Part shown: positions 32,552 to 35,814 of the stretch, piece after piece
How positions within the stretch are numbered: position 1 is the stretch's first letter
Layout of the letters: the number at the start of each line of letters is the position of its first letter
Origin: a virus
Virus record (IMG/VR): IMGVR_UViG_3300025928_000005
Location: 32,001-96,000 of that record
Strand: one strand, 5' to 3'
DNA: 64,000 nt
The notes under the pieces: model-generated
Seen by the model: the letters and a program-made list of their open reading frames with translations, nothing else
Told to the model about the DNA's origin: nothing
The model's database searches: none
Program-made: the position numbers and the translations under genes

Positions 32552-34258
32552 TCAGCTCTCCCACGGCCAGCGCCCCGCCTGGCCGGCCTCGAGGGTCAAC
32601 GGCAGCCCGAACATGGCGTCGGTCAGGCCGCCAAGCTCGTGACGGTTGCTGCCCGGCGTGACCGGCATCATCGTGTTCTTGTAGCCGGCGAGGTTGAACG
32701 CGTAGATCGGCACGTTCCGCGGGGCAGCCGAGTCGACGTCACCCACCCCGTAGTTTCCCATCGTCTGACAGTCGGTCAGGATGATGACGCGGCTGTGCTC
32801 AGGCCGCAGCGTCTCGCGGACCGCCCTCGCGATCTCGGTGCCGCCGCCGGCGCTCCCCTGGTATCGCTTGAACGTTTCCACCGCCTTGAGCAGGCTCGTG
32901 CCTGGCTCGACACCGGTGACGTGGAACTGCGTGTTCGCGAAGCCCCACGCGTCGACGCCGGCCGGGTTCCGGATCTTCAGGGCGAGCCCGAAGAGCGCGG
33001 CCGCGGTCGAGTAGTCCATCTTGGAGTTTTCGGACAGCTTGCCCCAGGTCATCGACGCGGAGGTGTCGATGAGCACGAGGGTCCGGCCCGGCAGTACGGG
33101 CACGTTCGCCAGGGAGTGGTTCACGGCCTGCTCCAGGGCGTGGCCCCACCGCAGGGACGGGGCCTCGAGGTAGGCGTTGAGGAACCGGAACGGCAGCTGA
33201 CGGCTCTTCCGGATCTGCTCCGGGTCGGCGAGCCGCGTCAGGAGCGGTCCGATCACCGAGTCCGGGACGCCGGCCTGGTCGAGGCCGCGCAGGTTGCGCA
33301 GCAGGGCCATGTAGCCGAGCTTGGGCAGCGCGAGCTGCCAGATCTCGGCGTCGGTGACGGCGCGGCCCTCGCTCGGCTTCTCGCCGAGCCACGACTTGAG
33401 CCACTCCCACTGGCCGACCATCGCCCCGTGGATCAGGTCGAGGGCGACCTGGTCGTCCGCGAGGGCGCGGCGCGCGAGGTCGTGCCGCTCGCTGGGGGTC
33501 AGGCGCGCCATCGCCCACCGGACCCGGACGTGGGTCAGGGACTCGGGCGGCTCCGCCCCGTCGCGGCCGTGCCGGGCGGTGATCGCCCACCGGAACAGGT
33601 CGTCCTGCCAGGTGCGCTCCGCGCCGGGGGTGCGGACGTCGGCGTGGGTCAGCTCGAGGACGTCGCCGAACCGCAGGGCCTTGCCCTCACCGTCGTAGCG
33701 CAGGAACGCGGCCTCGTCGTAGAGGCGCGTGACGGCGTCGGCGACGCCGCGCTTGACCGGCTTCGGCAGCTTGACGACGATCGTGCCGTCGGGGCGGGTG
33801 ACGCCGAACCGGTGCCGCCAGTAGGCGAGGAGCTCGCCCGGCTCATCGGGGCGCTGCAGCACCGACGTGACCAGCTCGCGGTTGCCGTCACCGTGCAGGC
33901 CGGCGGTGAGCCGGGCGTGCACGGCCTCCGCGGCGAGCAGGATCGACGCGGTGCGGATGTTGCCCGGGCCGCGCAGCCACGAGAGGAAGACCCGCACCCA
34001 CGGCCACGTCTCCTCGTTGACGGCGAGCTGGGCCACGAGCTCCCGCAGGCGCTGCACGTTCTCGTCCGCGGTGTCGTAGAAGCCCCTCTCACCAGCGAAC
34101 CGCGAGACCGCCCGCCTGAAGAGCTCGGACTGCGCGTCGCTCTGGAAGCCGGGCGCGCCCTCGTGGGTGAGCCCGTCCGGGGTCGCGCTGAGCGTCCGCA
34201 GCGGGCCGCTCGCGGCCGCGCGCCGCGGTTGGGTCGATGCCTTGTTGAATCCTGCCAC
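32552..34258 (-). CDS. rsr: Ro60/Rsr TROVE-domain RNA-binding protein with C-terminal vWA domain
   Basis: WLRGPGNIRT, QRPDEPGELLAYW, LPKPVKRGVADA, YMALLRNLR, SRQLPFRFLNAY, MIDAS DTSASM, GGT and IILTD. GTG start at 34258 with GAGAGGA RBS. Confidence 0.93.
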   Translation of the reverse strand: MAGFNKASTQPRRAAASGPLRTLSATPDGLTHEGAPGFQSDAQSELFRRAVSRFAGERGFYDTADENVQRLRELVAQLAVNEETWPWVRVFLSWLRGPGNIRTASILLAAEAVHARLTAGLHGDGNRELVTSVLQRPDEPGELLAYWRHRFGVTRPDGTIVVKLPKPVKRGVADAVTRLYDEAAFLRYDGEGKALRFGDVLELTHADVRTPGAERTWQDDLFRWAITARHGRDGAEPPESLTHVRVRWAMARLTPSERHDLARRALADDQVALDLIHGAMVGQWEWLKSWLGEKPSEGRAVTDAEIWQLALPKLGYMALLRNLRGLDQAGVPDSVIGPLLTRLADPEQIRKSRQLPFRFLNAYLEAPSLRWGHALEQAVNHSLANVPVLPGRTLVLIDTSASMTWGKLSENSKMDYSTAAALFGLALKIRNPAGVDAWGFANTQFHVTGVEPGTSLLKAVETFKRYQGSAGGGTEIARAVRETLRPEHSRVIILTDCQTMGNYGVGDVDSAAPRNVPIYAFNLAGYKNTMMPVTPGSNRHELGGLTDAMFGLPLTLEAGQAGRWPWES

Positions 34259-34287
34259 GTTCCGGGTTCCTCTCAGCTTGAACGAGA

Positions 34288-34327
34288 ACGAGGCCCCCAC
34301 CAGCCGTTAAGCTGGTGGGGGCCTCGT
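34288..34327 (-). terminator. 17-bp hairpin between the RNA array and the Ro60 gene
   Basis: ACGAGGCCCCCACCAGC-N6-GCTGGTGGGGGCCTCGT. Confidence 0.6.
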
Positions 34328-34550: not shown

Positions 34551-34631
34551 TCACCACGAGACCTGGGACGACCTGGGGCGACTCTTCAAATTAGCAGTTT
34601 GATATAGCCCCTGGTCTTTGCACCGTGGCGA
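34551..34631 (-). ncRNA. short Y RNA-like gene (Y4) with anticodon-like hairpin
   Basis: GGUGC...UAUAUC...GGUCUC scaffold; apical UCAAA-CUGCUAA-UUUGA. Confidence 0.72.
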
Positions 34632-34650: not shown

Positions 34651-34797
34651 GTCGACGCGAGACCAGGTGGCTGGCGGCGTGATCCTCGAAATGCTGCCGA
34701 TTACACCACGTCCCCGAGGGGACGGCGGGATTCGAACCCGCACCTCAACCTAATCAGGGTTGTGTGAAGTAGTCGCTGGCCGTCGCACCGCGTCGAT
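34651..34797 (-). ncRNA. YrlA-like Y RNA (Y3) with permuted tRNA module including an anticodon arm
   Basis: Shared scaffold; CAACC-CUGAUUA-GGUUG, T arm GCGGG-UUCGAAU-CCCGC, looped acceptor stem and D arm. Confidence 0.85.
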
Positions 34798-35310: not shown

Positions 35311-35383
35311 CGTGGTCCTCTGGCCGCTGAGGTACACCCCCTCGAAGTGGAGGTGAGGGGACTCGAACCCCCGACTTCCCACC
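35311..35383 (-). ncRNA. free circularly permuted tRNA-like RNA without anticodon loop
   Basis: GUGG, GAAGUC, T arm GGGGG-UUCGAGU-CCCCU, acceptor CACCUCC-loop-GGGGGUG, UA, D arm CCUC-AGCGGCCA-GAGG, A, CCAC. Confidence 0.75.
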
Positions 35384-35384
35384 G

Positions 35385-35458
35385 TGACTGCCGCTGGACT
35401 CGAACCAGCTACCTTCCGAGTTTCAACCGGACGCTCTCCCAGCTTGAGCTAGGCAGCC
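35385..35458 (-). tRNA. tRNA-Phe(GAA)
   Basis: Cloverleaf with TCCGG-TT GAA AC-TCGGA. Confidence 0.9.
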
Positions 35459-35653: not shown

Positions 35654-35814
35654 GAAACCTCACCGAGACCATTGAGCCTGCCCTCGGTTTTCTTTCTGAC
35701 TCTTGCTCTGCCAAGTTGAGCTACCCCACGACCGAGGTCGAGGGGACGGGACTTGAACCCGCAACCCAGAGTTCCGCTTGAAGTATCCGAGTGCGTTCGC
35801 ACCGGTGAGGCTTC
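35654..35814 (-). ncRNA. canonical-looking YrlA-like Y RNA (Y1)
   Basis: GGUGCGAAC...UACUUC, ACUCU/AGAGU connector stem, T arm GCGGG-UUCAAGU-CCCGU, looped acceptor, D arm GCUC-AACUUGGCA-GAGC and GGUCUC. Confidence 0.87.

What the first reader, a model, noticed from the sequence alone, without database searches (positions are those of the whole stretch)
34651..34797. Y RNA containing a complete circularly permuted tRNA with an Ile(GAU) anticodon arm
Seen: inside the Y scaffold the order is anticodon arm CAACC-CU GAU UA-GGUUG (34746-34762), AGGU variable loop, T arm, acceptor stem closed by a loop, then D arm. Known: in described YrlA RNAs the Ro-binding stem takes the place of the anticodon arm. 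Inference: a non-chargeable, full-shape tRNA-Ile mimic or decoy. The same operon also encodes a real tRNA-Ile(GAT).
Basis: partly seen in the sequence, partly recalled or inferred. Interest (0 to 1): 0.82.

Follow-up and report, generated by a model that had tools for sequence, protein, structure and literature searches.

The report
Phage Y RNA with anticodon-like arm
This is a phage copy of a known Ro60-bound small RNA (YrlA) whose tRNA-shaped part includes an anticodon-like hairpin; that hairpin is common across actinobacterial YrlA RNAs and already figures in the literature as the "V" stem-loop, and its GAU triplet is not conserved, so it is not a tRNA-Ile mimic.

Summary
On the minus strand, 34797-34651 is a Y RNA. 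It has an 8-bp closing stem, the Ro60 motif GGUGCGA, CUAC, the hairpin CAACC-CUGAUUA-GGUUG (34762-34746), AGGU, a T arm, a closed acceptor stem and a D arm. It lies 351 nt upstream of a phage rsr (TROVE) gene, inside an array of tRNAs and Y RNAs.

The hairpin is not special to this RNA. I collected 133 distinct YrlA-like RNAs next to actinobacterial and actinophage rsr genes. Of these, 102 have a 5-bp stem, a 7-nt loop and a 4-5-nt spacer just before the T arm (66 with perfect stems, against 2.3% of shuffles). The loop reads C32 U33 NNN R37 A38. The triplet at 34-36 is the most variable part, with 33 different triplets.

A covariance model built without this subfamily matches the RNA at 42 bits (E 2e-8). 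Its hairpin-spacer-T-arm segment aligns without gaps to real tRNAs.

Chen et al. 2014 already describe this element as the "V" stem-loop, and a primer sequence in their Methods places it in M. smegmatis YrlA. Close relatives carry CGU, UGU or CGC in place of GAU, so a tRNA-Ile decoy is not supported. The "complete permuted cloverleaf" reading is supported for the family as a whole.

Other notes of this scan cover the same array.

The parts
34651..34797 (-). Whole Y RNA (called Y2 here), YrlA class
   Evidence: Ends pair over 8-9 bp. Homologous units occur in L001, L002, L003, L005, L126 and L127 at the same place upstream of rsr.
34789..34796 (-). Closing stem, 5' strand UCGACGCG; pairs with 34652-34659
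   Evidence: Perfect complement; it is in both the MFE and the centroid fold. The equivalent stem covaries across 86 family members (columns 11-17 with 169-176).
34652..34659 (-). Closing stem, 3' strand CGCGUCGA
34783..34789 (-). GGUGCGA, the presumed Ro60/Rsr-binding motif
   Evidence: GGUGCG is nearly invariant in alignment A3. It resembles the GGUCCGA / GNCGAA motif that Chen 2014 name as the Ro60 contact. Binding was not tested.
34769..34772 (-). CUAC, the conserved YUAY motif of YrlA RNAs
   Evidence: UAC is invariant in A3. Chen 2014: YUAY begins the V region.
34746..34762 (-). Anticodon-arm-like hairpin CAACC-CUGAUUA-GGUUG (the 'V' stem-loop of YrlA); GAU at 34753-34755
   Evidence: Stem invariant and loop variable in relatives. 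Family-wide 5 bp/7 nt design. R1 aligns it to its stem-loop.
34742..34745 (-). AGGU spacer, equivalent to a class-I variable loop; U34742 is position 48
   Evidence: The last spacer base pairs in type with D-loop base 15 in 95 of 98 RNAs (G:C 58, A:U 37). Here it is A15:U48.
34725..34741 (-). T arm GCGGG-UUCGAAU-CCCGC
34709..34724 (-). Closed acceptor-like stem CGUCCC-CUCG-GGGACG
   Evidence: The equivalent helix covaries strongly in the family.
34691..34706 (-). D arm GUGU-AAUCGGCA-GCAU, preceded by U8 G9 (34708-34707)
   Evidence: Relatives have GUGU/GCAC, a G-U to G-C change.
34674..34678 (-). GCCGC, 3' strand of the inner Y stem; pairs with GCGAC 34772-34776 (one A-C mismatch)
   Evidence: L001 has GCGGC/GCCGC and L005 has GCGGU/ACCGC. 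The equivalent helix covaries in the family (columns 33-36 with 148-151).
32552..34300 (-). rsr (Ro60 homologue: TROVE plus vWA-like domain), the partner protein gene
   Evidence: Pfam TROVE 4.5e-13; thousands of TROVE homologues.

Best explanation
Y2 is a phage-encoded Y RNA of the YrlA class. It is cut out of a long transcript that also carries tRNAs and other Y RNAs and runs into the phage's Ro60 (rsr) gene. Its paired ends and the GGUGCGA motif form the handle that Ro60 holds. The rest is a tRNA-shaped module. In this RNA, as in most actinobacterial and actinophage YrlAs, that module has all four tRNA arms. The T arm, the sealed acceptor stem and the D arm are joined by a hairpin built like an anticodon arm: 5 bp, a 7-nt loop with C32, U33 and A38 (position 37 is a purine in 91% of family members but U in Y2), and a 4-5-nt variable loop leading to the T arm. 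The chain is opened between positions 26 and 27, and the Ro60-binding stem is attached there through short linkers. The hairpin is the element published as the 'V' stem-loop of YrlA. Its middle triplet is free to vary, so the RNA imitates tRNA shape in general, not tRNA-Ile. The likely role is the one proposed for YrlA: a tRNA look-alike tethered to the Ro60 ring that recruits or occupies tRNA-binding enzymes. Here this sits in a phage module that also encodes an RNA end-healing phosphatase. Shown here: the anatomy, the homology, the covariation, and the likeness to the anticodon-arm/variable-loop/T-arm segment of tRNA. Inferred: Ro60 binding, the L-shaped fold with the hairpin stacked under the D stem, and the function.
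For: Position: 351 nt upstream of rsr on the same strand, followed by a PNKP-type HAD phosphatase gene. Family scan: 133 distinct YrlA-like cores carry a YUAY motif near 160+ rsr loci. Of these, 102 have the 5-bp (at most one mismatch)/7-nt/4-5-nt design, against 17% of shuffles; 66 are perfect, against 2.3%. Perfect 5-bp stems peak only at loop 7 with spacer 4 (24) or 5 (44); every other loop/spacer combination has 10 or fewer. Loop composition: C32 78%, U33 94%, R37 91%, A38 95%. Positions 34-36 have the highest entropy (1.6-2.0 bits). Inner stem pairs show 4-7 pair types; on A4, helix 1 has 2 pairs with changes on both sides. Levitt-type match of base 15 with the last spacer base: 95 of 98. 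RNAalifold on 86 RNAs leaves UUAC (5') and about 9-10 nt (3') unpaired between the inner Y stem and the tRNA core, so the Y stem does not abut the D arm. R1, built from 45 RNAs without this subfamily, hits Y2 at 42.3 bits, E 1.8e-8. Its positions 5-43 align without gaps to the anticodon arm, variable loop and T arm of the window's tRNA-Asp (30.7 bits), tRNA-Met (30.3) and tRNA-Ile (23.2). ARAGORN and the GenBank records call the 5' halves of two such RNAs tRNA-Arg(tct) and tRNA-Ser(gct). Literature: V stem-loop, YUAY and Ro60 motif (PMC4201824).
Against: Rfam's YrlA model gives only 21.9 bits against a cut-off of 69. Single-sequence folding is ambiguous: z-score -1.5; hairpin pair probabilities are 0.4-0.8 in Y2 but below 0.1 in the L002-type relative. 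In the Y2 subfamily the stem CAACC/GGUUG is invariant, so it carries no covariation of its own. A rival extended fold (ACUUCA/UGAGGU plus ACC/GGU with a CACA bulge) would use up the spacer. Y2 departs from the family norm: 6 extra nt between CUAC and the hairpin, a 4-nt spacer, and U37. The stem-pairing percentages are inflated because members were selected for at most one mismatch. Many sequences are related (54 clusters at 80% identity). No expression, Ro60-binding or 3D data exist for this RNA.
Confidence: 0.78

Rival explanations
1. Variable-arm reading (the published labelling). The Y stem stands in for the anticodon stem, as in the Salmonella YrlA crystal structure. The hairpin is then a long variable arm like that of class II tRNAs.
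For: [quoted passage not shown] In Salmonella YrlA the stem leading to the Ro60 site is the anticodon stem (10.1101/312249). In Y2 the fold ACUUCA/UGAGGU plus ACC/GGU gives a long bulged arm with a 0-2-nt spacer, which is class-II-like.
Against: From general tRNA knowledge, class II variable arms have 3-5-nt loops and sit 1-2 nt from the T stem. Here the loop is 7 nt with U33/A38-type conservation, and the spacer is 4-5 nt with a G45 G46 U47 Y48-like make-up. R1 positions 5-43 align without gaps to the anticodon arm, variable loop and T arm of real class I tRNAs. The inner Y stem is separated from the D arm by about 9-13 nt rather than 1.
Confidence: 0.15
2. tRNA-Ile-specific mimic or decoy. 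The GAU loop imitates tRNA-Ile(GAU) to bait IleRS or an Ile-specific anticodon nuclease.
For: The loop CUGAUUA differs from the nearby real tRNA-Ile loop CUGAUAA by one base. GAU is the second most common triplet in the family, 8 of 102.
Against: Relatives with 75-79% identical Rsr have CGU, UGU or CGC. L005 keeps tRNA-Ile(GAT), yet its orthologue has CGC; L002 has CGU with no tRNA-Thr gene in the 9.7-kb locus. Position 37 is U, not a purine. The hairpin and T arm are not close copies of the neighbouring tRNA-Ile.
Confidence: 0.05
3. General anticodon-loop bait. The hairpin is a working anticodon-loop mimic displayed on Ro60. It acts as a decoy, sensor or substrate for enzymes that read anticodon loops (anticodon nucleases, loop-modifying enzymes). 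The triplet changes quickly under an arms race, and phages carry several versions.
For: The loop scaffold is conserved while 34-36 are the most variable positions. One 80%-identity cluster of 52 RNAs has 19 triplets, and L002 and L126 appear to differ only at position 34 over 162 nt. A second Y RNA in this array (34551-34631) carries only such a hairpin (UCAAA-CUGCUAA-UUUGA), with no T or D arm. Its relatives keep 5 bp/7 nt with other stems and triplets. Context: phage tRNAs plus a PNKP-type phosphatase.
Against: The same hairpin is in chromosomal YrlAs of many actinobacteria, not only phages. High variability at 34-36 is equally what neutral drift at unconstrained loop bases would give. No enzyme is identified.
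Confidence: 0.2
4. Inert relic. The hairpin is merely the left-over anticodon arm of the first tRNA of a tRNA-tRNA dimer from which YrlA arose (the Sim and Wolin model, cited in 10.1101/312249), with no present role.
For: Hairpin, spacer and T arm are colinear with real tRNAs. These RNAs sit in tRNA arrays, and my T-arm/hairpin/D-arm descriptor also picks up true tRNA-tRNA junctions. The dimer model is discussed.
Against: Stem covariation and near-invariant U33 and A38 across 54 sequence clusters show selection on the hairpin. About a quarter of YrlA-like RNAs lack it, so it can be lost, yet most keep it. The origin from a tRNA may still be true.
Confidence: 0.1

Closest known systems
Mycobacterium smegmatis YrlA (Chen et al. 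2014, PMC4201824)
   Same: It is encoded upstream of rsr and is about 147 nt long. It has the Ro60 motif, YUAY, a stem-loop upstream of the T arm, a closed acceptor stem and a D arm. The published primer shows loop CUUCUAA and spacer UGGUC, the same 5 bp/7 nt/5 nt design.
   Different: Y2 is phage-encoded. It has 6 extra nt between CUAC and the hairpin, a 4-nt spacer, U37, and a 6-bp rather than 7-bp acceptor stem. It may therefore not be an RNase P substrate, unlike the M. smegmatis RNA, which is cut and receives CCA.
Salmonella Typhimurium YrlA (Rfam RF02553; crystal structure 6CU1, 10.1101/312249)
   Same: Ro60-binding stem plus a T arm, sealed acceptor stem and D arm, with tRNA-type tertiary contacts and a Levitt pair.
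   Different: The Salmonella RNA has no hairpin before the T arm, and its Y stem itself serves as the anticodon stem. Y2 scores only 21.9 bits on the Rfam model (cut-off 69).
Deinococcus radiodurans Yrn1
   Same: It is a Ro60-bound Y RNA that, per Chen 2014, can be drawn with a possible 'anticodon arm' with a 5-bp stem.
   Different: There the loop is 6 nt, the arm order differs, and no full D arm is evident.
Circularly permuted tRNA genes of red algae and one archaeon (Soma 2007, cited in 10.1101/312249)
   Same: T arm before D arm, and an acceptor end initially closed by a loop.
   Different: Those precursors are cut, ligated and matured into working tRNAs by splicing enzymes. Nothing suggests this happens here, and the break lies at 26/27 with a Ro60 handle attached.
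Genuine class I tRNA (RF00005)
   Same: The segment from anticodon arm through variable loop to T arm matches in length and consensus.
   Different: The arm order is permuted, there is no free CCA end, Rfam scores 23.7 (below 29), and ARAGORN makes no call.

Membership tests
YrlA-class Y RNA (Chen 2014; Rfam RF02553) | Encoded within about 4 kb of rsr/Ro60 on the same strand | tested here: met
   The 3' end at 34651 lies 351 nt upstream of the rsr start at 34300, same strand.
YrlA-class Y RNA (Chen 2014; Rfam RF02553) | Ro60-binding motif near the 5' end (GNCGAAN0-1G / GGUCCGA-like) next to a stem formed by the two ends | tested here: met
   GGUGCGA at 34789-34783 follows an 8-bp closing stem. 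GGUGCG is nearly invariant in 86 relatives. It does not fit the printed GNCGAA letter for letter.
YrlA-class Y RNA (Chen 2014; Rfam RF02553) | T arm, then closed acceptor-like stem-loop, then D arm, with a 15:48 Levitt-type match | tested here: met
   A15:U48 in Y2, and 95 of 98 in the family.
YrlA-class Y RNA (Chen 2014; Rfam RF02553) | Conserved YUAY before the V region | tested here: met
   CUAC 34772-34769.
YrlA-class Y RNA (Chen 2014; Rfam RF02553) | Score at or above Rfam's gathering threshold for RF02553 | tested here: not met
   21.9 bits against 69. The Rfam consensus shown has no hairpin before the T arm. Model R1, built from actinobacterial members, gives 42.3 bits, E 1.8e-8.
YrlA-class Y RNA (Chen 2014; Rfam RF02553) | Physically bound by Rsr/Ro60 | not testable with these tools
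   Needs co-immunoprecipitation.
tRNA (RF00005) | Standard arm order with an open acceptor end; score above threshold | tested here: not met
   Permuted order; 23.7 bits against 29; no ARAGORN call.
tRNA anticodon arm (as a structural element) | 5-bp stem, 7-nt loop, U33, purine 37, 4-5-nt variable loop to the T stem | tested here: inconclusive
   Stem, loop length, U33, A38 and spacer are met. Position 37 is U in Y2 and L001 but A in the other relatives, and a purine in 91% of the family. The 3D position was not tested.
Class II tRNA variable arm | Short (3-5 nt) loop, arm ending 1-2 nt before the T stem | tested here: not met
   7-nt loop and 4-nt spacer. In the family the peak is at 7/4-5 only. 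The definition of the feature is from general tRNA knowledge.

The most novel reading that the evidence does not exclude
The hairpin that the literature calls the YrlA 'V' stem-loop may be a working anticodon-loop mimic held on the Ro60 ring. Its scaffold (C32, U33, R37, A38) is conserved and its triplet changes fast. It would serve as bait, sensor or substrate for enzymes that read anticodon loops. Phages would then carry sets of such baits, here GAU in Y2 and GCU in the minimal Y RNA at 34551-34631. As a corollary, actinobacterial YrlAs would be complete tRNA cloverleaves opened at position 26/27.
Probability: 0.2. Interest if true: 0.8.

Novelty: new member of a known kind. Interest (0 to 1): 0.45.

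Why it matters
For this RNA alone, little: it is one more phage YrlA. The family-level picture is more useful. It shows that most actinobacterial and actinophage YrlAs carry every arm of a tRNA. It also shows that the published 'V' stem-loop has the length, loop signature and spacing of an anticodon arm, and that its central triplet is the least constrained part. That fits the proposal that YrlA arose from tRNA-tRNA transcripts. It also gives concrete tests on the already tractable M. smegmatis YrlA: loop modification, cleavage by anticodon nucleases, and the effect of triplet swaps. A practical point follows too: tRNA finders and deposited phage annotations call some of these RNAs tRNA genes.

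Tried and rejected
(1) I re-ordered the arms in silico into standard tRNA order and ran ARAGORN. All 102 were called tRNA, but so were 83% of controls with a shuffled hairpin, so the test does not discriminate.

(2) Single-sequence folding does not decide between the hairpin and the rival pairings.

(3) A D-arm pattern scan of viral contigs returned mostly unrelated tRNAs. Only L017 added a relative.

(4) A single-protein search of genome contigs found nothing. The alignment-based searches worked.

(7) I looked for an encoded NCCA after the acceptor 3' strand and found no clear signal.

(8) MAFFT plus RNAalifold on full-length RNAs misaligned the hairpin region and did not predict it. Anchored counts and the shorter alignment A4 were used instead.

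(9) The Chen 2014 supplements are not held. I found no paper in the library stating that the V stem-loop mimics an anticodon arm, but the library is incomplete.

Full report
WHAT IS THERE. The window is high-GC DNA from a virus record. It has a large terminase gene and a LysM/transglycosylase gene. On the minus strand, an RNA-rich block runs from about 35800 to 34369. It holds five tRNA genes: Glu, Phe, Asp, Ile(GAT) and Met. Between them lie several Y-RNA-like units. The block is followed by a 582-aa TROVE-domain protein (Ro60/Rsr, 34300-32552) and a PNKP-type HAD phosphatase (32362-31850).

The finding is one of these units, 34797-34651. Reading 5' to 3', it consists of:
- closing stem UCGACGCG, paired with CGCGUCGA at the 3' end
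- GGUGCGA
- inner stem strand GCGAC, overlapping CUAC
- UUCACA
- hairpin CAACC-CUGAUUA-GGUUG (34762-34746)
- AGGU
- T arm GCGGG-UUCGAAU-CCCGC
- closed stem CGUCCC-CUCG-GGGACG
- UG
- D arm GUGU-AAUCGGCA-GCAU
- a 13-nt linker
- GCCGC, then the 3' part of the handle

Two details need adjusting. The sealed acceptor stem is 6 bp, not 7. Loop position 37 is U, where tRNAs have a purine.

RELATIVES OF THIS RNA. The Rsr protein led to loci in viral and metagenome contigs with 66-92% identical Rsr. The orthologous RNA is present in L001, L002/L003, L126/L127 and L005. The hairpin stem CAACC/GGUUG is invariant in all of them. The loop is CUGAUUA in the window and L001, CUCGUAA in L002/L003, CUUGUAA in L126/L127, and CUCGCAA in L005. 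GAU is therefore not conserved, while the loop frame C-U-NNN-(A/U)-A is.

The tRNA sets argue against a link to tRNA-Ile. L005 keeps tRNA-Ile(GAT) nearby but has CGC in the hairpin. L002 has CGU and no tRNA-Thr gene in its 9.7-kb locus.

THE WIDER FAMILY. I aligned 31 Rsr homologues. With that alignment I fetched 80 viral and 80 genomic actinobacterial rsr loci. A simple descriptor (T arm, then a closed stem-loop, then a D arm) found 233 distinct permuted cores. Of these, 133 have the YUAY motif of YrlA just upstream.

In 102 of the 133, the sequence immediately 5' of the T arm is a 5-bp stem (at most one mismatch), a 7-nt loop and a 4-5-nt spacer. Shuffled controls reach 17%. In 66 the stem is perfect, against 2.3% of shuffles. 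A table of perfect 5-bp stems over all loop lengths and spacers has a single sharp peak, at loop 7 with spacer 4 (24) or 5 (44). Every other cell holds 10 or fewer.

The loop has C at position 32 in 78%, U33 in 94%, a purine at 37 in 91% and A38 in 95%. The three central positions are the most variable of all anchored positions, at 1.6-2.0 bits, with 33 different triplets. The three inner stem pairs show four to seven pair types each. These percentages are inflated by my filter, but the variety of pair types is not. The last spacer base matches D-loop base 15 as G:C (58) or A:U (37) in 95 of 98 RNAs. This is the Levitt pair, and it places the spacer as a class-I variable loop ending at position 48. 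U8 and G10 are invariant, although the descriptor did not require them.

The sequences fall into 54 clusters at 80% identity, 37 of which have such a hairpin. The largest cluster (52 RNAs) holds 19 different triplets.

About a quarter of the RNAs lack the hairpin. In those the strand before the T arm pairs with the strand after the D arm, as in Salmonella YrlA; several Streptomyces loci are examples.

ANTICODON ARM OR VARIABLE ARM. Chen et al. [quoted passage not shown] They oriented YrlA so that this region corresponds to the variable arm, with YUAY beginning the V region. Their Methods give a sense primer from M. smegmatis YrlA, CACTTCTAATGGAATGGTCGC. This is the same design: stem ..CA/UG.., loop CUUCUAA, spacer UGGUC, then the start of the T stem. 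The element is therefore known, and it is present in an RNA shown to bind Rsr.

My data favour calling it an anticodon-arm equivalent, for three reasons:
- Its stem, loop and spacer lengths are those of an anticodon arm plus a class I variable loop. From general knowledge, a class II variable arm has a 3-5-nt loop and ends 1-2 nt from the T stem.
- RNAalifold on 86 full-length RNAs finds covarying closing and inner Y stems. It leaves UUAC on the 5' side and about 9-10 nt on the 3' side unpaired. The Y stem therefore does not continue directly from the D arm, as an anticodon stem would. In Y2 the 3' linker is 13 nt.
- I built covariance model R1 from 45 family members, excluding the window and its subfamily. 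On that alignment 97.7% of cells are paired, and the covariation score is 0.451 against 0.127 in shuffles. R1 hits Y2 over its full length at 42.3 bits, E 1.8e-8. Its positions 5-43 (hairpin, spacer, T arm) align without a single gap to the anticodon arm, variable loop and T arm of the window's real tRNA-Asp, tRNA-Met and tRNA-Ile, at 30.7, 30.3 and 23.2 bits.

Consistent with this, the Rfam tRNA model gives 23.7-27.7 bits to this stretch in Y2 and its relatives. ARAGORN and the deposited annotations call the 5' halves of two such RNAs tRNA-Arg(tct) (Gordonia phage VanLee) and tRNA-Ser(gct) (Streptomyces phage LuckySocke).

The best reading is a complete cloverleaf with a sealed acceptor end, opened between positions 26 and 27 where the Ro60 handle is attached. 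The 3D arrangement is inferred, not shown.

CAVEATS FOR Y2 ITSELF.
- Y2's subfamily is atypical. It has six extra bases between CUAC and the hairpin, whereas in most members the UUC after YUAC is the first part of the stem. It also has a 4-nt spacer.
- The stem does not vary among the available relatives.
- A rival fold pairs ACUUCA with UGAGGU around a CACA bulge and a 3-bp ACC/GGU top. Thermodynamic folding does not choose between the folds.
- Rfam's YrlA model, whose consensus lacks the hairpin, scores Y2 far below threshold.

FUNCTION. Nothing here tests function. By position and anatomy, this is a YrlA-class Y RNA that Rsr should bind through the GGUGCGA region. Published work on such RNAs proposes that the tRNA-like module engages tRNA-binding proteins or protects the RNA, and links Rsr/Y RNA to RNA decay and repair. 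The phage context (tRNAs, several Y RNAs, a PNKP-type phosphatase) fits an RNA-repair or tRNA-surveillance module.

The specific tRNA-Ile decoy idea is not supported. A broader idea remains open: the loop may be a bait for anticodon-loop-reading enzymes, with a fast-changing triplet. Two observations favour it. The scaffold is conserved while the triplet is hypervariable. A neighbouring minimal Y RNA (34551-34631) carries only such a hairpin, and its relatives keep the 5-bp/7-nt form with other stems and triplets. Neutral drift at three unconstrained loop bases would look the same, and the hairpin is equally common in chromosomal YrlAs.

The colinearity with tRNA also fits the published idea that YrlA arose from tRNA-tRNA transcripts.

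VERDICT. This is a new phage member of a known RNA family. The family-level re-reading of the 'V' stem-loop as an anticodon-arm equivalent, with a hypervariable triplet, is the part worth following up. It could be tested on M. smegmatis YrlA.

Noticed in passing
L129:2716-2787 (Gordonia phage VanLee, NC_073474.1) and L132:2774-2847 (Streptomyces phage LuckySocke, OR725497.1): These are annotated tRNA-Arg(tct) and tRNA-Ser(gct), and ARAGORN repeats the calls. Each overlaps the 5' half of a YrlA-like RNA: YUAC, hairpin, spacer and T arm, followed by a closed stem and a D arm, just upstream of the Ro-like gene. They are probably Y RNAs mis-called as tRNA genes.
   Followed up: partly
window 34551-34631 (-), hairpin 34602-34586: This is a minimal Y RNA with no T or D arm. 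It carries UCAAA-CUGCUAA-UUUGA right after CUAU-A. Its relatives in L005 (AUCGA-CUGUUAA-UCGGU) and L001 (AUCGA-CACCAAU-UCGAU) keep a 5-bp/7-nt hairpin with different stems and triplets.
   Followed up: partly
window 35704-35786 (-) and 35316-35402 (-): Model R1 hits two further permuted tRNA-like cores at 48.8 and 47.7 bits. The first is a YrlA-type RNA without a canonical 7-nt-loop hairpin (Rfam YrlA 37.8 bits). The second lies between tRNA-Phe and tRNA-Asp and appears to lack a Ro60 handle.
   Followed up: partly
Streptomyces loci such as L274:2164 and L274:2363, and L281, L263, L291: Many actinobacterial rsr loci carry two YrlA-like RNAs in tandem. One has the anticodon-like hairpin. The other lacks it: the strand before its T arm pairs with the strand after the D arm, as in the Salmonella type.
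   Followed up: no
Family alignment A3, columns 37-40 and about 132-147: Both linkers that join the Y stem to the tRNA-like core contain a conserved YUAC-like word: 5' UUAC and 3' CCUACGU. Their role (a kink, a non-canonical motif, or a protein contact) is unexplained.
   Followed up: no
L084, L098, L062 (unrelated phage tRNA arrays): The descriptor for T arm, closed stem and D arm also fires on true junctions between adjacent tRNA genes. There the acceptor 3' strand, the spacer and the next acceptor 5' strand can pair. This illustrates how a tRNA dimer could give rise to a YrlA-like core.
   Followed up: no
Family-wide, loop positions 36-38: U36 (61%), A37 (78%) and A38 (95%) give a UAA 3' side. 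From general knowledge, this is the signature of tRNAs that read A-starting codons and carry a bulky position-37 modification. A34 is rare (5%), as in real tRNA genes. I did not test whether this reflects ancestry or use by a modification enzyme.
   Followed up: no
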